64,000 nucleotides of DNA, from NCBI GenBank assembly GCA_964612415.1, contig CAZTCT010000001.1, positions 455 to 64,454 on the forward strand, given 5' to 3'. The first letter of the stretch is position 1, and the number at the start of each line of letters is the position of its first letter. Below the pieces are notes generated by a model, which made no database searches, was not told the DNA's origin, and worked only from the letters and a program-made list of their open reading frames with translations. The position numbers were made by a program, and so were the translations under genes. Shown here one piece after another: positions 28,579-37,049 of this stretch. Source of the stretch: an uncultured Candidatus Saccharibacteria bacterium (GTDB lineage: Bacteria; Patescibacteriota; Minisyncoccia; Phycocordibacterales; CAYRGE01).

Positions 28579-30348
28579 TTAGAGTTTGATAGTGAAGTAA
28601 AACGTACTCCCTACCCCCTCTTCAGAAGCAACGCCCAAAACTCCTCCATGCGCCTCTACAATACCCTTGGCAATAACAAGGCCAAGTCCCGTACCCTTTT
28701 TCTCTTTACTGCGCGCTCCCGCTTCAAGCTGTTTAAACTTGTTAAACAAAGAGCCGATATCTTCTTTTTTGATACCAATTCCTGTATCGGTAACGCTTAC
28801 TACCAGCGCATCTGGATATCGCACAAATAATTTCTCCTTGTCGGTAATGCGGGACTGAATCCCTGCTTTCTTTATCTCGTCCTCAATATGATTTCCTTTC
28901 CTGTGCACAAATACATCTACATTGACCTTCCCCCCTTCTGGAGTAAATTTGATGGCATTGGCAAGAAGATTCGTCACCACTTGTGAGACCCGCCTTCCAT
29001 CAAACTGTGCCTTTTCTGGAGTATCTGGTGCAACAACGGAAGCAAGCACGAGTTTCGCCGCATGAGCAGATGACTCAAAAAGAGCAAGTCGATCTGAGAT
29101 CGTACTTCGTATATCCATGCTCTCTGGTCTTATCTCAAATTTGCCAGCCTCAATTTTTGCCACATCGAGGAGGTCCCCCACAAGTTCAAGCATCTCCCCT
29201 GCGCTATCGCGCATAAGGTCAATGTATTGAAGAAATGTTTTCTGATCCTGTCTGATGGTGTCATCTGTCTGCATCATTTCTCCCATTTTTTTGATCCCAT
29301 CAAGGGGGCTTCTTAATTCGTGCACCATCATGGATGTAAAATCTTCCCTCATTCGCTCTAGTTCCTTGTCGTGTGTAATGTCATGAAGAATAACCACTCC
29401 TCCCATTATTTCCTTTTGTCCCCCTTCACGATCATCTTTCACGGGAGAAACAAATATTTGAAAGACTCTATCTTGAATAAGGATGTCTGAGACAGTAATG
29501 ACTTTATCCAGCTTAACGCTTTCTTCTAATTTCCCACGAATATCAAACTTCCCACCAAGCTTATCTATAAGATCAAAAATTGAGGGGTCTTGGTCTTGGA
29601 GTTTAAGGGCTCTTCTCGCAGCAGGATTTACCACGAGCACTCGATATTCTTGGTCTGTCATGATTACGCCTTCGGCCATGCTCTCCACCATGGCATTGAG
29701 CTTTTTCTGCTCCGTGTGTACTACATCCTGCAATCTTGTGATCTCTTGGGAAGCCTGGTTGACCACTTTATAAAGAAGGGTCATTTCATCTTCCTTGTAG
29801 AGCCCGTCTCTCGTGTGAGCAACGGTAAGAATTCCCACGATTTTCTCACCGATCACCAAAGGAATATTGAAATAGGAGTTGACCGTTGTCGCGGCCGACT
29901 CAACCATAATAGACCCCGTGATTGTCTCTTCAATCTTGTAATTATCAAAGGTTTGATTGAGTAGGGCCGAAAGTGAGTGCAGCATCCGCGCCTTCACATC
30001 ATTTACAAAATCTTTTGACACAGGCCTGTCCAAATCAGCTTTAAAAAGGAGCCTGTCTTGATCAAACAACATGTAAGACGCAACACTGTACTCAATAAAC
30101 TGGTGCAGTGAGCCCACAATTATGTCCACAACTTTTTGGATATCGAGGGAATACCCCGCTCGTTCACCAATCTCCTTAAGGATAGCAAGCTCGTATACTC
30201 TTTTTTTAAGCTCTTTTTCGTGGACTGACTGCTTCTGTTCATGAGATTTACTTTTCCAATAAAAAAACCCTCCTAGGCAAAGTGATATGAGGGTGATGGC
30301 AATCAGGAGAAAATCCATTGTGTAGCAAAAGGTTAGTTCGCCCGCCAA
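28579..30348 (-). CDS. Sensor histidine kinase: N-terminal TM anchor, GAF/PAS-like sensor region, HisKA and HATPase_c.
   Basis: H-box MVHELRSPLDGI. N box and G boxes are present (NLLANAIKFT, DTGIGI, GTGLGLVIAKGIVEAHGG). Confidence 0.92.
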   Translation of the reverse strand: MAGELTFCYTMDFLLIAITLISLCLGGFFYWKSKSHEQKQSVHEKELKKRVYELAILKEIGERAGYSLDIQKVVDIIVGSLHQFIEYSVASYMLFDQDRLLFKADLDRPVSKDFVNDVKARMLHSLSALLNQTFDNYKIEETITGSIMVESAATTVNSYFNIPLVIGEKIVGILTVAHTRDGLYKEDEMTLLYKVVNQASQEITRLQDVVHTEQKKLNAMVESMAEGVIMTDQEYRVLVVNPAARRALKLQDQDPSIFDLIDKLGGKFDIRGKLEESVKLDKVITVSDILIQDRVFQIFVSPVKDDREGGQKEIMGGVVILHDITHDKELERMREDFTSMMVHELRSPLDGIKKMGEMMQTDDTIRQDQKTFLQYIDLMRDSAGEMLELVGDLLDVAKIEAGKFEIRPESMDIRSTISDRLALFESSAHAAKLVLASVVAPDTPEKAQFDGRRVSQVVTNLLANAIKFTPEGGKVNVDVFVHRKGNHIEDEIKKAGIQSRITDKEKLFVRYPDALVVSVTDTGIGIKKEDIGSLFNKFKQLEAGARSKEKKGTGLGLVIAKGIVEAHGGVLGVASEEGVGSTFYFTIKL

Positions 30349-30356
30349 GATGCACG

Positions 30357-30632
30357 TTATGTACGCAAGTTATGTTTTACAGAAGGATATTTTGTAAATA
30401 TAGGGCCAAGCGCATTCTTTACGATCTGTCCAGAAAGTTCAACATACTGATCAATTAATTTTTGCAGCGCAACTTGCGGGTCTCCTTTTATGTCAGTTAC
30501 AACACCATTTGAAGACACCTCAAGCTCAGGGACATTCTTGGCTTTAAGCACCGCAATCTCAGGCCCAAGTATTACTACCTGCTTTGCAATAACTTCTGAG
30601 ATAACTGCTTTGTATTGTTCTTTTTCAGGCAT
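30357..30632 (-). CDS. Hypothetical small cytoplasmic protein, first in the operon with the histidine kinase.
   Basis: 91 aa ORF starting 9 nt upstream of the kinase start. No recognisable motif. Confidence 0.45.
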   Translation of the reverse strand: MPEKEQYKAVISEVIAKQVVILGPEIAVLKAKNVPELEVSSNGVVTDIKGDPQVALQKLIDQYVELSGQIVKNALGPIFTKYPSVKHNLRT

Positions 30633-30634
30633 AC

Positions 30635-31051
30635 CTATTTACCATTAAGTGCTTTGAAAATGTGATTTCCTCCAATTGCCATTAACACATACCCTGCCAT
30701 AAAGAAGAAGTCGTGGGCCAATTTAAAATTTGTGGCGGTAACTGTCCCTGATACAAACGATACCGAACCAATAGTGAACGCAAGGAGCGCGAAAAACATG
30801 CCGCACGCCAAATAAAGAAAGGCTTTCCCAAACACTCCGCCTCTCATTTTGCGCGCATTCCAATACACAAGCCCGCTTGTGATAAACCCAAGCAAAAGCG
30901 CGCTCGCAACAGAATAGGAATTGAGAATGATAATTGTCTGGGAATCAACAACTATATCATTGAGAAACGCCCCCATCGCAGCAAAGGCAGGGACAGGAAT
31001 AAGAGCGAGCAAGACGAGTAGATATTTCATAGAAAGTTTATTCTCTTTCAT
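30635..31051 (-). CDS. Hypothetical 4-TM membrane protein, upstream in the same operon.
   Basis: 138 aa with four hydrophobic helices. Directly abuts the 91-aa gene. Confidence 0.5.
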   Translation of the reverse strand: MKENKLSMKYLLVLLALIPVPAFAAMGAFLNDIVVDSQTIIILNSYSVASALLLGFITSGLVYWNARKMRGGVFGKAFLYLACGMFFALLAFTIGSVSFVSGTVTATNFKLAHDFFFMAGYVLMAIGGNHIFKALNGK

Positions 31052-32462: not shown

Positions 32463-32921
32463 TTAATACAGTGTAATGTCCTCAAACACAGGCGCTCCAG
32501 AAATACTCAAAGCTGGCATATCTCGTGAAATAGCAAATTTCCTATTGCCATCATCGGCGTAGATGATTAACCTAACGCTTTGACCTTTAAAAGGTTGGCT
32601 ATCCAGAGCAATAGAAATATTATTATGCGCTCCCGCTGACAGATAGTCACTCACCCCCAAAACTTCCCCGGGAATACCTTTTTCAATTTCCATTACAACA
32701 ACAAAACCAGGGCGCACAAGGGATGCGTGCAGAACAGACACATTCTCTCCCGCCCCCTGTACTCCCGCAAAAATAGTATTCGCTTCCGTTTCCGCTTCAC
32801 CCACAGAGCTGTTGTCAAAAATAAAGGTGTGCCTTTCTGTCTTCCCAAAAACCAACCATCCCCCCAGAGAAACAGCAGCTACCACGACCAGAGACATAAG
32901 AATCTTCCGTTTCATCTTCAA
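32463..32921 (-). CDS. Hypothetical secreted protein.
   Basis: 152 aa with an N-terminal signal/TM segment (ILMSLVVVAAVSLGGWLVFG). No recognisable motif. Confidence 0.45.
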   Translation of the reverse strand: MKMKRKILMSLVVVAAVSLGGWLVFGKTERHTFIFDNSSVGEAETEANTIFAGVQGAGENVSVLHASLVRPGFVVVMEIEKGIPGEVLGVSDYLSAGAHNNISIALDSQPFKGQSVRLIIYADDGNRKFAISRDMPALSISGAPVFEDITLY

Positions 32922-33913
32922 TGTTTAAGCTTAAGCATGCGTAGAATGTGGTCCGCTACTCGTATCGGCATAGCGAGCATATTTTGCGCGAAATTTTTAA
33001 GTGGTGACATACTAGTGGGAGACGAGTCTTGCAACAAGTCGTCAACGGAAATCATCCCATTTTCACTAAGGGCTTCCAAGACGCAACTTTCTACCGCGGT
33101 ACGGAGTTCATCCGTAGAAATTATCCCTTCAACAACGTCCTCTTCTGCTCTCTCGCCAAGTCGCTCTTTCAAACAGAGAGCTGTCTCCTCTGGAAAACTT
33201 GCAAAATGAAATACCTCTGGCGCCACAACCGCATCAGGTGGAAGAGCACTTTCCCCAGCACCACCGCCAGCCTCAGGGACAGGAATTGTTTCAGAGATCG
33301 TGTCGCTTACCTGTAGCTCTTCGCCAGTTTTTTTGATTGACTCATTCATGTCTGCGGTAGTGGTCGCCTCAATATTTTCATTTAGCACATTTGCCACTGT
33401 GCCACGAGAAATCATCGCGAAGCCAACACACTCACTTACATGCTCGGGCATAAGACAATACGACAGACAAGAATCTTTTGAGGAGCAACCTCCTGGGAGC
33501 TCCCCGCCTGTCTTAAGGTAGCCGAGGACTCTTTTTGCTGCATCAACAATCTGAGTGTTTAGATTAAGCTCTGCAGCAAAAGAAAGGCATTCTTCTATAT
33601 GACCTATATTGTCGCAATACAAGATGCATTCTTTGGTACTTGCGCACGCTCCAGGCGTTTCACTTGAGAGTATCGCTTGAGAAAACTGCTTCGCCACCAC
33701 CACACTCTTGTCGGTAATAATTCCTTGCTTCTCTGCAAAGTCAGCACACGCCGGAATATTAACAGGTAGGTCACAGTACACACGACACTCTTCTTTATTT
33801 GTACACCCACCAAGCTCTTGTATAGGAAAAGAAAAATGCTCTTGCGCAGAAACAAAAAGAGGAAAGAAGGAGATGGCAAAAAAGAGGGCTATTTTAAAGA
33901 AATCGGTTCTCAT
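32918..33913 (-). CDS. Secreted protein with three tandem Cys-rich repeats (C-x5-C-x3-C-x8-C) and an acidic C-terminal region.
   Basis: Signal peptide MRTDFFKIALFFAISFFPLFVSAQE. Repeats are GGCTNKEECRVYCDLPVNIPACADFA, GACASTKECILYCDNIGHIEECLSFA and GGCSSKDSCLSYCLMPEHVSECVGFA. Confidence 0.6.
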   Translation of the reverse strand: MRTDFFKIALFFAISFFPLFVSAQEHFSFPIQELGGCTNKEECRVYCDLPVNIPACADFAEKQGIITDKSVVVAKQFSQAILSSETPGACASTKECILYCDNIGHIEECLSFAAELNLNTQIVDAAKRVLGYLKTGGELPGGCSSKDSCLSYCLMPEHVSECVGFAMISRGTVANVLNENIEATTTADMNESIKKTGEELQVSDTISETIPVPEAGGGAGESALPPDAVVAPEVFHFASFPEETALCLKERLGERAEEDVVEGIISTDELRTAVESCVLEALSENGMISVDDLLQDSSPTSMSPLKNFAQNMLAMPIRVADHILRMLKLKH

Positions 33914-33915
33914 GA

Positions 33916-34233
33916 TTATTCAAATGGGTTTGTGTAAACCCCAGAAAGAGGATTGATCGTCGGGGTTAAAAAGGACGCTACCTCCTCTTTGCTATCCTTC
34001 ATACTAGGAGACTCTTCTTCTTTGGGAGAAACCTCTTCACTTTGAATAGTATCTGTGGGGGTATTCTCTTCTTGAGTTTTGGTTGCCACAGAAAGTACTG
34101 GATCAGGCTCATCATACTCAACCGAAAGTGGTGTCACGTCAGAGAGAAACCACATCACTGCCGCGCAAAGCGCGATGAATAAAATAGAGACAAGAAAAAC
34201 GAGCAGTGTATTGCCTTTTGAATGTACGTTCAT
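33916..34233 (-). CDS. Hypothetical membrane-anchored protein with an acidic ectodomain.
   Basis: 105 aa. TM helix LLVFLVSILFIALCAAVMWFL followed by a Glu/Ser/Pro-rich tail. Confidence 0.45.
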   Translation of the reverse strand: MNVHSKGNTLLVFLVSILFIALCAAVMWFLSDVTPLSVEYDEPDPVLSVATKTQEENTPTDTIQSEEVSPKEEESPSMKDSKEEVASFLTPTINPLSGVYTNPFE

Positions 34234-34294
34234 AAGGTACTTGTTCTCTAATTATAGTAGAAAAATATTTTGTTGTCCTGTCTGCCTTCTACTT

Positions 34295-34732
34295 TTACAC
34301 AAAAAGAATTGCTCCAACCACGACAAGGAGCGCTCCCAGCCCGGTTTTCCACGTTAATGATTCTCCTAAAAAAAGGATGGATAAGGCCAAAATAAACATT
34401 ATGCTCGTTTTATCAACAGCAGCAACGGCTGACGCATTTCCTACTTTAAGAGCAGCAAAATAAAATGCCCATGACAATGCCCCTGAAATACCGGCAAGTA
34501 CAATAAAAAGGAATGGTTTACCTGATAAAGCGGCAGGATCGTAAATCCGAAACGCAAAACAAGCACCTATTAAAACAATGGTGATGATGACGGAGCGAAC
34601 CATTGCCGCAAAAGTACTATCAATACCAGACACTCCAATCTTGCCAAAAACAGCAACGAGGGCTGCAAAAAACGCAGAACAAATAGCATATATAATCCAG
34701 GTGCTCATTTTATTGATGTTTCTTGAAAGCAA
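34295..34732 (-). CDS. EamA-like (DMT superfamily) small transporter.
   Basis: 145 aa, 4-5 TM helices, EamA-like pattern (...AALSGKPFLFIVLAGISGALSWAFYFAALKVGNASAVAAVDKTSIMF...). Confidence 0.55.
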   Translation of the reverse strand: MLSRNINKMSTWIIYAICSAFFAALVAVFGKIGVSGIDSTFAAMVRSVIITIVLIGACFAFRIYDPAALSGKPFLFIVLAGISGALSWAFYFAALKVGNASAVAAVDKTSIMFILALSILFLGESLTWKTGLGALLVVVGAILFV

Positions 34733-35135
34733 ACGAAAGGCTTGTGTATCCTAGGAATGTGGTAACAATTACTCCTAATATATTGAGCCAATATGGAATA
34801 GCAAATCCCCCAACAGAAAAGGAGAGTCCAAATAATACACGCAGAAGGTGCATGGCTGCTACAAGAAAAAACACACAACCAGCGATTATGAAAAAAGTGT
34901 GCTGTGGGTGTTTAAGAGGAAGAGATATTTTCCATCCATAATGAATAAGAAATACAAAAAGTATAAAATCAACGGTCAACCACGCATACACTGGCGGAGG
35001 AGTAAAAACTATTCCTAGAAACGGGAAAGCGTAGACGCCTTGAGTGAGCACCCAGAATCCCACGATTATGTCTGCAGCAATAACGCCTGCAAAAAATTTT
35101 GAAAGTTCGCGAAGTACATAGTGGTCTTTTTTCAT
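34710..35135 (-). CDS. Hypothetical polytopic membrane protein.
   Basis: About 140 aa. Start taken at MKKDHYVL to avoid overlapping the MazG-like gene. Confidence 0.4.
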   Translation of the reverse strand: MKKDHYVLRELSKFFAGVIAADIIVGFWVLTQGVYAFPFLGIVFTPPPVYAWLTVDFILFVFLIHYGWKISLPLKHPQHTFFIIAGCVFFLVAAMHLLRVLFGLSFSVGGFAIPYWLNILGVIVTTFLGYTSLSFAFKKHQ

Positions 35136-35143
35136 ACCATTTA

Positions 35144-35455
35144 TTAGTCTTTTTTCTCCCATCGATCCTTGTCACGCCCATAACATTTGTCCATTGTTCG
35201 CTCAAAACCCTTATCAAGGTCTAAGTCCAACGAGTTCGCGAGGCAACACAGCGTGAAAACAATATCCGCCATTTCATCCTCAAGATCTTTTGTGTCTTCA
35301 CTGTCTTTCTTTTTCTTGGGACCAAATCGATGATTGAGTTCTCGAGCAAGTTCGCCCGTCTCCTCTGTGAGGCGAGCTAATATTTCGAGGGGTTTCCAAT
35401 ACCCCATTTTATACTGTTTAACCCATTCATCTACTTCTCTCTGACGTTCCTTCAT
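35144..35455 (-). CDS. MazG-like nucleoside triphosphate pyrophosphohydrolase.
   Basis: EILARLTEETGELARE...LEDEMADIVFTLCCLANSLDLDLDKGFERTMDKCYGRDKDRW is a MazG/NTP-PPase helix bundle with the EExxE motif. Confidence 0.75.
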   Translation of the reverse strand: MKERQREVDEWVKQYKMGYWKPLEILARLTEETGELARELNHRFGPKKKKDSEDTKDLEDEMADIVFTLCCLANSLDLDLDKGFERTMDKCYGRDKDRWEKKD

Positions 35456-35462
35456 GGCACTT

Positions 35463-35954
35463 TTATTGTACTCCTTGAGGCAAATATTGTCTTCCTAGAG
35501 GAAACTCTGTGTCAGAGGCTGTCAAAAGCCATTGTTTAAAATCACCATCCTCACTTTTCCAGCGAGAGGCAAAGTCAATGAGCGTCATTTTGAATTGCGG
35601 ACCGTTCCAAGGATCATTGAGAACTACGTGCTCATCTCCCACATCTACCACGACAGCATAATGCCCCTCATCCGATGAGGGTTCAATAAAGTGCACAATT
35701 GCGGGATACCCGAGCGCGACAAAATATCGAAGCTCATCTGTTGTTGACTCTGTATTCACATACACATATAGCCCATTCTCACGGATTGTATCAATAATTG
35801 GTCCATGCTTTGTGCCTGTGCTCTTTCTTGTATGAAGAATTTGAATGAGATCCTCTTCGCTAAGTATCTTGCCATAAAACCGCAATATCATTTGGACAAC
35901 AGAAGGTCCGCATGAGTACCCTGTATCTTGTTTAAAAAAAGGAACATTGATCAT
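35463..35954 (-). CDS. Stand-alone peptidase C39-like domain protein (papain-like Cys/His/Asp), paralog 1.
   Basis: N-terminal PFFKQDTGYSCGPSVVQMIL has the C39 catalytic Cys context. GHYAVVVDVGDEHVVLNDPW has the His and Asp. No signal peptide and no ABC transporter domain. Confidence 0.7.
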   Translation of the reverse strand: MINVPFFKQDTGYSCGPSVVQMILRFYGKILSEEDLIQILHTRKSTGTKHGPIIDTIRENGLYVYVNTESTTDELRYFVALGYPAIVHFIEPSSDEGHYAVVVDVGDEHVVLNDPWNGPQFKMTLIDFASRWKSEDGDFKQWLLTASDTEFPLGRQYLPQGVQ

Positions 35955-35955
35955 G

Positions 35956-36522
35956 TTAGTGTCCTCCTCCTGAAAAAATTATCGAGCTCGGCCCGGCTTC
36001 AAAATTATAGTCTGCATTATGCATGTTTTGATCCCCTCCCATGCATGTTGCTTTTGTAAGTTGTGGCTGTGGAGTTTCAAACTTATTTATTGAAAGAACA
36101 GCTCTGTACTGATTTTCATTATTCACATCACACGTGGGAGTAGCCTGACACACAGATGTATTCATACAGTGCTCAGGATCATATGCATAAAAATACGTTA
36201 CTCCATCATACAATGGATCCTTCGGGACACGCGGCAAATATGGAGCGAGCGCCGCATCAATATTTCCGCCAACTCCTATTTTTTCTCCATACCCAGGAAC
36301 TCCTCCATATGGGGCAGGAGCCGGCACTTCTCCATCATGATCACTTTGAAAGAGCGCGATAGCAGTTGCAATGGCCTTAATATCAGAGAGCCTTTGCGCA
36401 TCTCGTGCTTTGGCGCGAGCAGCGTTCAGTGACCCAACAATAACGGTTGCCAATACACCGATAATCGCGATGACAATAAGAAGTTCAATAAGCGTAAACC
36501 CTTTTCCTTTTTTTGTATTCAT
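35956..36522 (-). CDS. Type IV pilin/pseudopilin.
   Basis: Class III prepilin signal MNTKKGKG|FTLIELLIVIAIIGVLA, with Gly at -1, Phe at +1 and Glu at +5. Globular C-terminal domain with Cys pairs. Confidence 0.9.
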   Translation of the reverse strand: MNTKKGKGFTLIELLIVIAIIGVLATVIVGSLNAARAKARDAQRLSDIKAIATAIALFQSDHDGEVPAPAPYGGVPGYGEKIGVGGNIDAALAPYLPRVPKDPLYDGVTYFYAYDPEHCMNTSVCQATPTCDVNNENQYRAVLSINKFETPQPQLTKATCMGGDQNMHNADYNFEAGPSSIIFSGGGH

Positions 36523-36563
36523 TTTCCTGCCAGTAAACCGTTAAAATAAGTGTACAGGATATT

Positions 36564-37049
36564 TTACTTCTCATCCACATCAAAAAGTTCACCCTCTATT
36601 GGTTTATTAGAAATGGCCAAAAGCCACTGTTTATGGGGCATGTATTTACTCTGCCATCGCCTCACAAACTCATCCAGTGGAAGTGTAAAGCCGGGACCAA
36701 ACCAAGGATCTTGAAGAACAATCTTGCCAGCGCTTATGTCTACAGCAACAGCGTAGTGTCCCTCATCCTCTTCTGGTTCAAGATAATCAATTATGACTGG
36801 AACTCCTTGTTTAATAAATTTTTTAATCTCCCTTGTTGTAGTATTCTCATTCACATATGTGAAGAAACCATGATGTTGCGCTGTTGTCACAAGCTCATGG
36901 TTAGCAGCGCCTGTTTCCTTGCTTACACTTAACACATGTGAGATCTCCTCTTCTGTAAGCTCGACTCCATAAAATTCAAGTACCATCCTGATAGACGCAA
37001 GGGCACAGGTGTGATCTTTCTCTTGTTTCCGAAATGGTACTGTAATCAT
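36564..37049 (-). CDS. Stand-alone peptidase C39-like domain protein, paralog 2.
   Basis: PFRKQEKDHTCALASIRMVLEFYG...GHYAVAVDISAGKIVLQDPW has the same Cys/His/Asp layout as the 35463 gene, with roughly 40% identity judged by eye. Confidence 0.7.
   Translation of the reverse strand: MITVPFRKQEKDHTCALASIRMVLEFYGVELTEEEISHVLSVSKETGAANHELVTTAQHHGFFTYVNENTTTREIKKFIKQGVPVIIDYLEPEEDEGHYAVAVDISAGKIVLQDPWFGPGFTLPLDEFVRRWQSKYMPHKQWLLAISNKPIEGELFDVDEK

What the first reader, a model, noticed from the sequence alone, without database searches (positions are those of the whole stretch)
32463..34233. A secreted protein built from three tandem C-x5-C-x3-C-x8-C repeats, flanked by two other secreted unknowns
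The 331-aa protein at 32918..33913 has a signal peptide and three ~35-aa repeats with identical cysteine spacing: GGCTNKEECRVYCDLPVNIPACADFA, GACASTKECILYCDNIGHIEECLSFA and GGCSSKDSCLSYCLMPEHVSECVGFA. That gives 12 Cys and a conserved K-E/D-x-C...YC...EC...FA skeleton, followed by an acidic tail. I cannot match this spacing to a named domain. It suggests a disulfide-knotted or metal-binding extracellular module. The two neighbours (32463..32921 and 33916..34233) are also exported, so the three genes may form an extracellular system.
Basis: seen in the sequence. Interest (0 to 1): 0.55.

Follow-up and report, generated by a model that had tools for sequence, protein, structure and literature searches.

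The report
Unnamed cysteine-repeat surface protein with partner
The flagged gene encodes a short member of a large, unnamed family of secreted proteins found almost only in ultra-small Patescibacteria, built from helical modules with four invariant cysteines each, and it nearly always follows a tiny membrane-protein gene whose outward-facing tail carries Asn-Pro-Phe motifs, which suggests a two-part cell-surface structure nobody has described.

Summary
The minus-strand ORF 33913..32918 encodes a 331-aa protein with a Sec-type signal peptide and three C-x5-C-x3-C-x8-C units. The true period is 53 aa, not about 35.

The units match no Pfam, NCBIfam, PHROGs or PDB entry. They do define a large family: 1,886 representative clusters, every named member a "hypothetical protein", almost all from Patescibacteria/CPR genomes. 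Members carry 3-13 repeats.

AlphaFold models the repeat array confidently (pLDDT 91) as three helices per unit. Foldseek finds no neighbour in the PDB or BFVD. The four cysteines are invariant in 1,862 of 1,908 aligned units. Cysteines outside the repeats come in even numbers in 112 of 117 proteins, which favours disulfides over metal sites.

The main new result concerns the upstream 105-aa gene. It is a conserved partner: a small membrane-anchored protein whose tail ends in NP[FLIY] motifs. It sits directly upstream in at least 75 of 96 scanned loci and in 8 of 8 targeted look-ups, a median of about 4 nt away.

The downstream DUF7282 gene is not conserved beside the cassette. This is a two-gene cassette, not a three-gene system.

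My best reading, largely inferred, is a disulfide-stapled helical rod tethered or organised by the NPF-tail anchor.

The parts
34251..34279 (-). Promoter-like site (AGGACA-17 nt-TATAAT) in the 61-nt gap upstream of the 105-aa gene
   Evidence: 10 of 12 consensus matches, the best site in the region. This is a consensus match only, not evidence of function.
33916..34233 (-). Gene for the small partner protein (105 aa): short basic N-terminus, one transmembrane helix, acidic external linker and a C-terminal NP[FL] tail
   Evidence: It has no Pfam, NCBIfam or PHROGs family. Equivalent genes lie directly upstream of the repeat gene in at least 75 of 96 loci and in 8 of 8 targeted look-ups.
34144..34206 (-). 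Transmembrane anchor of the partner protein (aa 10-30, LLVFLVSILFIALCAAVMWFL)
   Evidence: Read from the sequence. In 73 of 75 homologous partner proteins the N-terminal segment has mean hydropathy above 1.6.
33919..33966 (-). C-terminal tail TPTINPLSGVYTNPFE with two NPx motifs, ending in the family signature [YK]-x-N-P-F-[EKQ]-COOH
   Evidence: Alignment A6: the final N, P and F are conserved in at least 90% of partner proteins. Only 21 of about 16,300 other ORFs in the same loci have such a tail.
32918..33913 (-). Gene for the 331-aa cysteine-repeat protein. Its ATG lies 3 nt after the partner gene's stop codon.
33845..33913 (-). Sec-type signal peptide (aa 1-23, predicted cleavage VSA|QE)
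   Evidence: Read from the sequence. 146 of 158 family representatives have an N-terminal hydrophobic segment, usually ending A-x-A|Q.
33662..33820 (-). Repeat unit 1 (aa 32-84; Cys 37, 43, 47, 56), preceded by the family's N-terminal cap FPIxELGG
   Evidence: Leave-out HMM i-E 4e-19. Modelled as three helices with pLDDT above 90.
33503..33661 (-). Repeat unit 2 (aa 85-137; Cys 90, 96, 100, 109)
   Evidence: Leave-out HMM i-E 2.5e-16.
33404..33502 (-). Repeat unit 3, truncated (aa 138-170; Cys 143, 149, 153, 162). It lacks the third helix.
   Evidence: Leave-out HMM i-E 2.6e-14, covering profile positions 2-30 only.
33194..33403 (-). Acidic linker (aa 171-240), modelled with low confidence
   Evidence: pLDDT 28-37; composition.
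33074..33193 (-). Probable diverged copy of the family's second module, P-x-E-x3-C-L-x3-L-G...C (aa 241-280; Cys 247 and 277)
   Evidence: The module is found in 34 of 160 family members. The window protein matches it only weakly (7.1 bits, E 0.05), but both Cys align. pLDDT is about 60.
32921..33073 (-). C-terminal tail (aa 281-331). The segment SPLKNFAQNMLAM resembles the PQSLFDxxKNFLA end motif seen in some relatives.
   Evidence: The resemblance is visual only. The motif HMM finds 16 of 160 family members and does not include this protein.
32463..32921 (-). Downstream 152-aa gene: N-terminal anchor plus a DUF7282 domain. It overlaps the repeat gene's stop codon, so it is probably co-transcribed here, but it is not part of the conserved cassette.
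   Evidence: Pfam DUF7282, 59.1 bits against a cut-off of 27. No homologue beside the cassette in 122 loci or in the nearest homologues.

Best explanation
Genes 34233..33916 and 33913..32918 form a conserved two-gene cassette typical of Patescibacteria (CPR bacteria).

The second gene encodes a Sec-exported protein whose core is an array of tandem modules of about 53 aa. Each module has three helices. This copy has three modules; relatives have up to 13. I propose that each module is locked by two disulfides formed by its four invariant cysteines, and that the array makes a stiff, protease- and stress-resistant rod outside the cell.

The first gene encodes a small membrane protein with its N-terminus inside and a disordered acidic tail outside. 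The tail ends in two to five Asn-Pro-Phe-type short motifs.

I further propose that these motifs dock onto the repeat array. One repeated ligand would meet one repeated receptor. The rod would then be held at, or organised on, the cell membrane as part of the envelope or attachment surface of these very small, host-dependent cells.

Shown: the repeat family, its helical model, cysteine invariance, export signals, and the conserved tight gene pair.
Inferred: disulfide bonding rather than metal binding, the tail-to-repeat contact, and the structural or tethering role.
For: Repeat family:
- Three units in the window protein.
- 1,886 representative clusters at E<=0.001 and 1,063 at E<=1e-30, with 6-13 units in the best hits.
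- At least 1,815 further 90%-identity clusters, all named "hypothetical protein" from Parcubacteria or Patescibacteria.
- At least 120 genome loci, nearly all CPR MAGs.

Structure:
- The AlphaFold2 model of the three-repeat region has pLDDT 91 and pTM 0.75, with three helices per unit. C2 and C3 lie on helix 1 and C4 on helix 2.

Cysteines:
- All four are present in 1,862 of 1,908 aligned units. Almost all other rows are truncated alignments; only 2 show a substitution.
- Mature proteins have an even Cys count in 153 of 158 cases.
- Cysteines outside the repeats are even in number in 112 of 117 proteins, p=2e-27. That count includes 47 proteins with 2, 6, 10 or 14 extra Cys.
- VKOR homologues lie beside the cassette in three loci, so these lineages can make extracytoplasmic disulfides.

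Export:
- Signal peptides in 146 of 158 representatives.
- Pro/Gly-rich spacers follow the repeats in longer members (P 13%, G 12%), and 5 of 59 carry a ConA-like lectin domain. Both features are typical of surface proteins.

Partner gene:
- An NPF-tail gene lies directly upstream in at least 75 of 96 assessable loci, against 21 of about 16,300 other ORFs.
- It is present in 8 of 8 targeted look-ups.
- The median intergenic distance is about 4 nt.
- No other conserved neighbour exists.
- 18 of 158 repeat proteins themselves begin their mature chain with NPF, immediately before the first repeat. This places the same tripeptide next to a repeat within one molecule.

Analogy from the literature: Helicobacter cysteine-rich proteins are secreted helical-repeat proteins cross-linked by disulfides, and they share TPR-like peptide-binding sites (PMC3851747, read).
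Against: - No coordinates were available, so Cys-Cys distances and disulfide connectivity in the model could not be checked.
- No complex prediction could be run, so the tail-to-repeat contact rests on gene linkage and logic alone.
- The number of NPx motifs does not track the number of repeats (Spearman rho 0.20, p=0.12).
- Proteins that carry their own N-terminal NPF still keep the partner gene, so there is no sign of cis/trans substitution.
- No VKOR or DsbA gene lies in this 64-kb window, and VKOR adjacency is rare, 3 of 122 loci.
- Many CPR bacteria live in anoxic water, where extracellular disulfides are less expected.
- The window protein is an atypically short member. It lacks the Pro/Gly-rich spacer, and its C-terminal motifs are only weakly recognisable.
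- There are no expression or localisation data.
Confidence: 0.5

Rival explanations
1. The four cysteines of each unit form a metal site, for example tetrahedral Zn, a Cu(I) thiolate site as in copper storage proteins, or an Fe-S cluster. The protein would then be an extracellular metal-binding, metal-storage or redox array.
For: - Four invariant Cys per unit of about 30 aa.
- A CxxxC pair on one helix face, as seen in Cu(I)-binding helical proteins (my own knowledge of Csp1/Csp3 and Sco proteins).
- Conserved acidic residues and a His/Asn position near the cysteines.
- Short 35-aa units without the third helix still keep all four Cys.
- Anoxic habitats disfavour disulfides.
Against: - The protein is exported through Sec in an unfolded state, which excludes preassembled Fe-S clusters.
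- The would-be His ligand is Asn in 45% of units.
- There are no CxxC knuckles typical of Zn sites.
- Cysteines outside the repeats are paired in number in 112 of 117 proteins. That is the signature of an oxidising folding compartment.
- No PDB sequence or fold match to copper storage or other metal proteins.
Confidence: 0.15
2. All three genes (105 aa, 331 aa and the 152-aa DUF7282 protein) form one extracellular system.
For: In this genome the three ORFs are packed on one strand, with a 3-nt gap and a 4-nt overlap. There is one promoter-like site upstream and no terminator-like site between them. All three have N-terminal export or anchor segments.
Against: - No homologue of the 152-aa protein was found among all ORFs of 122 related loci.
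- The five nearest homologues checked have unrelated downstream genes: Mrr-like, RecQ, unknown, or genes on the opposite strand.
- All-against-all clustering finds no conserved neighbour other than the NPF-tail gene.
Confidence: 0.07
3. The repeat protein is a freely secreted effector aimed at the host or at competitors. It could be a polyprotein of defensin-like or toxin-like cysteine-stabilised peptides, or a protease inhibitor. On this view the small upstream protein is unrelated to its localisation and might be, for example, an immunity or export helper.
For: - Weak Pfam matches of some family members to defensin-like, late-nodulin, gamma-thionin and Kazal models.
- The signal peptide.
- The episymbiotic lifestyle of many CPR bacteria (my own knowledge).
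Against: - The matches are at or near the cut-offs and rest on the signal peptide plus cysteine spacing. For the window protein, Nodulin_late scores 13.5 bits against a cut-off of 30.4.
- The model is all-helical with a confident inter-repeat arrangement (pTM 0.75). It is not beads of alpha/beta knottins.
- No processing sites lie between units.
- Pro/Gly-rich spacers and lectin-domain fusions look like surface anchoring.
- No viral or PHROGs relatives.
Confidence: 0.08

Closest known systems
Helicobacter cysteine-rich proteins (HcpB, HcpC), Sel1-like repeat family
   Same: Both are Sec-secreted bacterial proteins made of tandem alpha-helical repeats stabilised by cysteines, and both form an elongated array. 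HcpC shows TPR-like peptide-binding sites and tail-in-groove crystal contacts (PMC3851747). That is the type of interaction I propose for the NPF tail.
   Different: There is no sequence relationship, with no Sel1 or TPR Pfam hit even at E<=1. Hcp structures do not appear among the Foldseek matches. The units here are 53 aa with three helices and four Cys, against about 36 aa with two helices and two Cys. Hcp proteins have no dedicated partner gene with a motif-bearing tail.
CHCH domains (twin Cx9C) and alpha-hairpinins or CS-alpha/alpha toxins (Cx3C...Cx3C)
   Same: These are small helix-turn-helix units whose two helices are pinned by two disulfides, with one CxxxC on a helix. A CHCH protein (NDUFB7) was among the weak, non-significant PDB profile hits.
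   Different: The spacing is C-x5-C-x3-C-x8-C. Only one CxxxC is present, and C1 lies in a Gly-rich loop before helix 1. The hit is not significant (E about 0.07) and aligns only part of the cysteines. CHCH proteins are mitochondrial single domains, not secreted tandem arrays.
Eukaryotic EH domain / NPF-motif recognition, and TPR / C-terminal peptide recognition (Hop-EEVD)
   Same: A short linear motif, literally Asn-Pro-Phe, is repeated in a disordered tail. It is presumed to be read by a helical domain. Multivalency exists on both sides.
   Different: The resemblance is a lead from memory, not a test. No EH (EF-hand) or TPR domain is present. The one Pfam 'NPF' repeat hit among the partner proteins is marginal: 1 of 29, E 0.009. 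Binding is untested. The compartment is extracytoplasmic in a bacterium.
Gram-positive surface proteins with Pro-rich wall-spanning regions and C-terminal sorting signals (LPXTG, or the -CTERM families in NCBIfam)
   Same: The layout in longer family members is the same: signal peptide, repeated ectodomain, Pro/Gly-rich spacer, then a short hydrophobic or amphipathic C-terminal motif.
   Different: There is no LPXTG or NCBIfam CTERM sorting-domain match. Only 7 of 158 C-termini are hydrophobic enough for a membrane helix. Anchoring, if any, would be through a separate small protein.

Membership tests
Unnamed GPGGC four-cysteine helical repeat family (defined here) | Units matching x-G-P-G-G-C-x5-C-x2-[YF]-C-x8-C-x2-F-A, with a period of 48-56 aa, in tandem after a signal peptide | tested here: met
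   Three units with i-E-values of 4e-19 to 2.6e-14 against a profile built without this protein. Consensus from 1,908 units. Period distribution.
Unnamed GPGGC four-cysteine helical repeat family (defined here) | A small gene directly upstream on the same strand encoding a TM anchor plus a C-terminal NP[FLIY] tail ending ...NPF[EKQ] | tested here: met
   The window's 105-aa protein ends ...TINPLSGVYTNPFE, and its stop codon lies 3 nt before the repeat gene's ATG. The same arrangement is found in at least 75 of 96 loci.
Sel1-like repeat / Helicobacter cysteine-rich proteins | A match to the Sel1 (or TPR) profile, and repeats of about 36-44 aa with two helices | tested here: not met
   No Sel1 or TPR hit at E<=1. 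The model has three helices per 53-aa unit. No Hcp structure appears among the Foldseek hits, where the best is E 2.3 with TM<=0.25.
CHCH (twin Cx9C) domain | Two Cx9C motifs on antiparallel helices | tested here: not met
   The spacing is C-x5-C-x3-C-x8-C in 1,044 of 1,199 units, and no Cx9C pair is present. The NDUFB7 hit has E about 0.07 and only a partial Cys alignment.
Plant defensin-like / late nodulin / gamma-thionin (cysteine-stabilised alpha-beta) | A Pfam profile match above the gathering score, and a beta-sheet pinned to a helix by CxxxC...CxC | tested here: not met
   Nodulin_late scores 13.5 bits against a cut-off of 30.4 for the window protein. The AtDEF-like hits in relatives cover the signal peptide plus the first unit. 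The model is all-helical.
Copper storage proteins (Csp) and other Cys4 metal sites | A four-helix bundle with a Cys-lined core, or CxxC zinc knuckles, and bound metal | tested here: inconclusive
   No sequence or fold match to such proteins, and no CxxC knuckles. Metal content cannot be tested with these tools.
Disulfide-bonded extracytoplasmic protein (general class) | Cysteines paired as disulfides in the mature protein | not testable with these tools
   The evidence is indirect only: even Cys counts in 153 of 158 proteins, and in 112 of 117 for the extra cysteines.
NCBIfam C-terminal sorting domains (LPXTG, PEP-CTERM and similar) | A profile match to a sorting-signal model at the C-terminus | tested here: not met
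   No NCBIfam family at E<=1 for the window protein. Nothing above the cut-offs for 10 typical members.
DUF7282 (Pfam PF23951), for the 152-aa neighbour only | A Pfam profile match above the gathering score | tested here: met
   59.1 bits against a cut-off of 27, covering aa 53-148.

The most novel reading that the evidence does not exclude
The cassette is a two-component envelope or attachment device specific to ultra-small, host-dependent prokaryotes. A membrane anchor displays multivalent Asn-Pro-Phe short linear motifs. A disulfide-stapled helical-repeat rod of a previously unseen fold reads those motifs. This would be a bacterial counterpart of eukaryotic motif/repeat-domain recognition. 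The rod, with variable length and occasional lectin heads, would set envelope spacing or mediate contact with host cells. The same four-cysteine module occurs at the C-termini of proteins in Aenigmatarchaeota (DPANN) MAGs, which hints at sharing between the two episymbiont radiations.
Probability: 0.2. Interest if true: 0.8.

Novelty: categorically new. Interest (0 to 1): 0.58.

Why it matters
CPR/Patescibacteria make up a large share of bacterial diversity. They have tiny genomes and mostly live attached to other cells, yet most of their surface proteins are unannotated.

This cassette is one of the few such items that is all of the following:
- widespread, with thousands of sequence clusters across many Parcubacteria lineages and some Microgenomates;
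- structurally well defined, with a confident model;
- accompanied by a built-in hypothesis that can be tested directly, because a conserved partner carries a simple peptide motif.

If the NPF tail does bind the repeat array, that would define a new protein-peptide recognition module and a new way of anchoring surface proteins in bacteria that lack classical sorting machinery. It would also give a handle, as an antibody or tag target, for imaging the CPR cell surface.

At minimum, two new domain families can be defined for the annotation databases: the four-cysteine repeat and the NPF-tail anchor.

Tried and rejected
- A word-indexed homologue search with the 53-aa unit profile gave one useless hit.
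I used a degenerate DNA pattern instead.
- The first three-repeat alignment (A3) was out of register and was not used.
- I tried to infer disulfide partners from joint cysteine loss. It was uninformative, because the cysteines are practically never lost.
- I tested whether the number of NPx motifs scales with the number of repeats. It does not (rho 0.20, p 0.12).
- I tested whether repeat proteins with their own N-terminal NPF lack the partner gene. They keep it in 3 of 3 cases.
- I tested for VKOR linkage. It holds in only 3 of 122 loci, and there is none in the window.
- An HMM for the C-terminal amphipathic motif recovers only 16 of 160 members and not the window protein.
- I considered and dismissed, as sub-threshold or compositional, the following matches: defensin-like, nodulin, Kazal, SPP1_GP23-1, DUF2680 and AcrIC5 in Pfam; HepT in NCBIfam; and HPt and NDUFB7 in the PDB.
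- There are no viral contig matches and no PHROGs matches.
- Literature searches for the Cys spacing, for CPR cysteine-rich proteins, for VKOR in Patescibacteria and for DUF7282 found nothing relevant.
Full report
**What is in the window**

On the minus strand, three ORFs are packed head to tail:
- 34233..33916 (105 aa);
- 33913..32918 (331 aa), whose ATG lies 3 nt after the previous stop;
- 32921..32463 (152 aa), whose start overlaps the previous stop.

A promoter-like site (AGGACA-17-TATAAT) lies in the 61-nt gap upstream of the first gene. No terminator-like site separates the genes.

The surroundings look like a Patescibacteria/CPR genome. They include a histidine kinase, phosphoglucose isomerase, a half-size EamA transporter, MazG, two stand-alone C39-like peptidases, a type IV pilin-like protein and scattered tRNAs, at about 45% GC. 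The exact protein is recorded only from an NCBI contig of 205.7 kb and two Logan assemblies, and it has no name.

**Checking the observation**

The 331-aa protein has a classical Sec signal (MRTDFFKIALFFAISFFPLFVSA|QE). It has three exact C-x5-C-x3-C-x8-C units, with cysteines at 37/43/47/56, 90/96/100/109 and 143/149/153/162.

A unit profile built only from other proteins finds the three units with i-E-values of 4e-19, 2.5e-16 and 2.6e-14. None of 100,000 shuffles of the mature sequence contains two such motifs.

The period is 53 aa rather than about 35, and the third unit is cut short. Two further cysteines (247 and 277) lie in the acidic C-terminal half (pI 4.3), most of which is modelled as disordered.

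The flanking proteins have N-terminal hydrophobic anchors but no obvious cleavage site.

**No named family matches**

The window protein gave:
- only noise in Pfam at E<=1 (DUF5805 at 15 bits, Nodulin_late at 13.5 bits against cut-offs of 28.5 and 30.4);
- nothing in NCBIfam or PHROGs;
- nothing meaningful in PDB sequences.

Profiles of one unit or of three units against the PDB gave only non-significant hits: an HPt protein at E 0.009 and the CHCH protein NDUFB7 at E about 0.07.

Relatives give scattered matches at or near the cut-offs to defensin-like, Kazal, SPP1_GP23-1, DUF2680 or AcrIC5 models. These rest on the signal peptide, the Cys spacing or Glu/Lys-rich helices. NCBIfam gives nothing above its cut-offs for ten typical members.

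**It is nevertheless a large family**

The first search found seven homologues at 35-41% identity carrying 5-11 units.

A 53-position unit profile (alignment A2) was searched against 1.84 billion representative proteins. It found 1,886 proteins at E<=0.001 and 1,063 at E<=1e-30. The best hits have 6-13 units and lengths of 400-1,555 aa.

A typical member as query finds at least 1,815 further clusters. Every name supplied by a source is "hypothetical protein", from Parcubacteria, Paceibacterales, Nealsonbacteria or the Patescibacteria group.

Nearly all are Patescibacteria MAGs: Harrison-, Nealson-, Jorgensen-, Wolfe-, Colwell-, Ryan-, Azam-, Yanofsky-, Uhr-, Nomura-, Terry-, Lloyd-, Wildermuth-, Sungii- and Daviesbacteria. 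There was no hit in viral contigs.

Across 1,908 aligned units the consensus is x-G-P-G-G-C-[KR]-[SG]-x-[ED]-[EA]-C-x-x-[YF]-C-x-[DN]-P-x-[HN]-x-[ED]-E-C-h-x-F-A-x-x-x-G-[LF]-[IM]-[SP]-x-E-E-A-x-x-A-[KR]-K.

With three units, the window protein is at the short end of the family.

**Structure**

With an alignment of 53 first-three-repeat segments kept in register (A4), AlphaFold2 models aa 28-176 with mean pLDDT 91 and pTM 0.75. Each unit has a Gly-rich loop carrying C1, a short helix carrying C2 and C3 (one CxxxC face), a tight turn, a second helix carrying C4, and a third longer helix that links to the next unit.

The full-length model agrees for the repeats. It shows aa 171-241 and 291-331 as low-confidence.

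**Disulfides or metal?**

The four cysteines are present in 1,862 of 1,908 aligned units. Almost all other rows are truncated alignments; only 2 show a substitution. Joint cysteine loss therefore cannot reveal the pairing.

Parity is informative:
- mature family members have an even number of cysteines in 153 of 158 cases;
- among the 117 with cysteines outside the recognised units, 112 have an even number of extras (p=2e-27);
- that includes 47 proteins with 2, 6, 10 or 14 extras, which cannot be hidden four-Cys units.

This is the expected signature of proteins that fold in an oxidising compartment. In addition, the His-like position between C3 and C4 is Asn in 45% of units, there are no CxxC knuckles, and export is by Sec. 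VKOR homologues lie next to the cassette in three loci.

I therefore favour two disulfides per unit, at about 70%. The connectivity is undetermined, although C2-C4 plus C1-C3 is geometrically plausible. A metal site remains a live rival.

**The conserved partner**

In the first two homologue contigs examined, a small gene ended 8-12 nt before the repeat gene. Its product ended ...TNPFEANTNPFQEAGYQNPFRQ or ...TNPFDTSVNPFDSYQNPFKD. The window's 105-aa protein ends ...TINPLSGVYTNPFE.

I then scanned all fetched loci. Of 96 repeat genes with enough upstream sequence, 75 have an ORF on the same strand ending within -60 to +200 nt that carries at least two NP[FYWLIM] motifs in its last 35 residues and ends with NP[FYW]. 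Only 21 of about 16,300 other ORFs in these loci have such a tail.

Most of the 21 "misses" are repeat genes with long N-terminal extensions, whose starts my script misjudged.

The distance from stop to start has a median of about 4 nt, with many overlaps. Eight of eight targeted look-ups of homologues show the same arrangement.

The partner proteins are 65-118 aa long (median 90). They have a short basic N-terminus, one strongly hydrophobic helix (73 of 75), a variable polar linker and the motif tail. No Pfam family matches them. By the positive-inside rule the tail is outside the membrane, in the same compartment as the repeat protein.

**The third gene and other neighbours**

The 152-aa protein is a clear DUF7282 member (59 bits). 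It has no homologue anywhere in the 122 related loci. The five nearest homologues checked have unrelated downstream genes.

All-against-all clustering of 3,219 ORFs from the loci gives only four large clusters: the repeat proteins, two sets of antisense shadow ORFs that lie entirely within the repeat genes, and the NPF-tail proteins.

The conserved unit is therefore two genes. The DUF7282 gene is a local passenger, probably co-transcribed in this genome.

**Other family features that bear on function**
- After the repeats, longer members have Pro/Gly-rich low-complexity regions (P 13%, G 12%).
- Some longer members end in a short amphipathic motif such as PQSLFDxxKNFLAxxxxF. The HMM finds it in 16 of 160. 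The window protein's SPLKNFAQNMLAM looks similar but is not significant.
- 34 of 160 members carry one to four copies of a second, two-cysteine module (APPEVxxCLxxxLG...C). The window protein's aa 241-277 align to it weakly, with both Cys in place.
- 5 of 59 long members end in a ConA-like lectin domain (Laminin_G_3).
- 18 of 158 begin their mature chain with NPF, just before the FPIxELGNC cap of repeat 1.

These features fit a surface-exposed scaffold better than an enzyme or a diffusible toxin.

**Proposed mechanism**

Shown:
- a secreted array of rigid helical modules with four invariant cysteines each;
- a co-encoded, probably translationally coupled, membrane-anchored protein that displays repeated NPF-type motifs outside the cell.

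Inferred:
- each module is stapled by two disulfides;
- the disordered NPF tail binds the repeat array, as one multivalent ligand meeting one multivalent receptor;
- the complex tethers or organises the rod at the envelope.

Evidence against the binding idea is that motif number does not track repeat number and that a cis NPF does not replace the partner.

The nearest precedent in principle is the Helicobacter cysteine-rich protein family. These are secreted Sel1-like helical repeats cross-linked by disulfides, with TPR-like peptide-binding sites (PMC3851747). Every membership test for Sel1/TPR, CHCH, alpha-hairpinin, defensin-like, copper-storage and sorting-signal families failed or was inconclusive. 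I do not file the protein under any of them.

**Novelty and verdict**

I found no paper describing this repeat, the NPF-tail proteins or their pairing in the searchable library.

At the level of family, fold (as far as tested) and gene pairing, this is new. The general principle of cysteine-stabilised extracellular helical repeats is not new.

Interest is moderate to good. The function is unknown and the mechanism is inferred. However, the cassette is widespread in a poorly understood part of the tree, and it comes with a sharp, cheap test: does the peptide bind the repeats, and are the cysteines oxidised?

Noticed in passing
L093 (aa 271-303 of its ORF), L116 (aa 810-838), L108 (aa 651-677); L114: The same four-cysteine module (GPGGCxSxExCxEYCxxxEHTEEC) occurs as a single copy at the C-terminus of large proteins in Aenigmatarchaeota (DPANN) MAGs. 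Two or three short units occur in an Elusimicrobiota MAG. The module is therefore not strictly confined to CPR bacteria, although the multi-repeat-plus-partner cassette essentially is.
   Followed up: partly
Family members P0157, P0121, P0141 and others; window 33074..33193: A second conserved module of about 43 aa with two cysteines, (Q/N)APPEVxxCLxxxLGxE...P...G...CFE, follows the repeats in 34 of 160 family members and can itself be repeated up to four times. No Pfam match was seen for proteins that contain it.
   Followed up: partly
C-termini of P0002, P0010, P0011, P0017, P0018, P0048 and others; window 32921..33010: Some family members end in a short amphipathic motif (PQSLFDxxKNFLAxxxxF, often followed by R) after a Pro-rich spacer. 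It could be a new C-terminal anchoring or sorting signal. No NCBIfam sorting-domain model matches it.
   Followed up: partly
P0013, P0017, P0022, P0030, P0034-36, P0048, P0049, P0079 and others (18 of 158): The mature N-terminus of some repeat proteins begins with NPF immediately before the FPIxELGNC cap of repeat 1. This is the same tripeptide that marks the partner protein's tail. These proteins still keep the partner gene.
   Followed up: yes
L014, L021, L025, L029, L057, L061: A subfamily of repeat proteins has an N-terminal extension of about 130-190 aa (...VIDCKNNKTELEIPPPVDG... followed by a poly-Pro stretch) before the first repeat. The extension matched nothing that I checked.
   Followed up: no
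L121 3582-4037 (-), L038 1131-1992 (+), L086 3752-4754 (+): VKOR homologues lie within a few kb of the cassette in three loci, and two of them are long enough to be fusions. In L121 the VKOR gene is next to a BacA (undecaprenyl-diphosphatase) gene.
   Followed up: partly
window 35463..37049 (-): Two stand-alone proteins of about 160 aa with a C39-like or papain-like peptidase domain (35463..35954 and 36564..37049) flank a type IV pilin-like gene with an N-terminal methylation motif and several cysteines (35956..36522). This looks like a small pilin-processing or bacteriocin-type cluster without the usual ABC transporter fusion.
   Followed up: no
window 30357..31051 (-): Two small ORFs without any Pfam family lie between the GAF/PAS histidine kinase (28579..30348) and phosphoglucose isomerase. 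One is 91 aa and soluble. The other is 138 aa with several hydrophobic segments. They are tightly packed with the kinase gene.
   Followed up: no
L127 187-627 and L128 270-773: In two unrelated contigs, a Gmad2 (immunoglobulin-like) domain gene lies two genes upstream of the cassette. This may be a lineage-specific association.
   Followed up: no
window 34295..35162 (-): A half-size EamA transporter gene (145 aa, a single EamA domain) overlaps the end of a 150-aa multi-pass membrane protein gene that has no family match. It sits immediately upstream of the cassette's promoter-like site.
   Followed up: no
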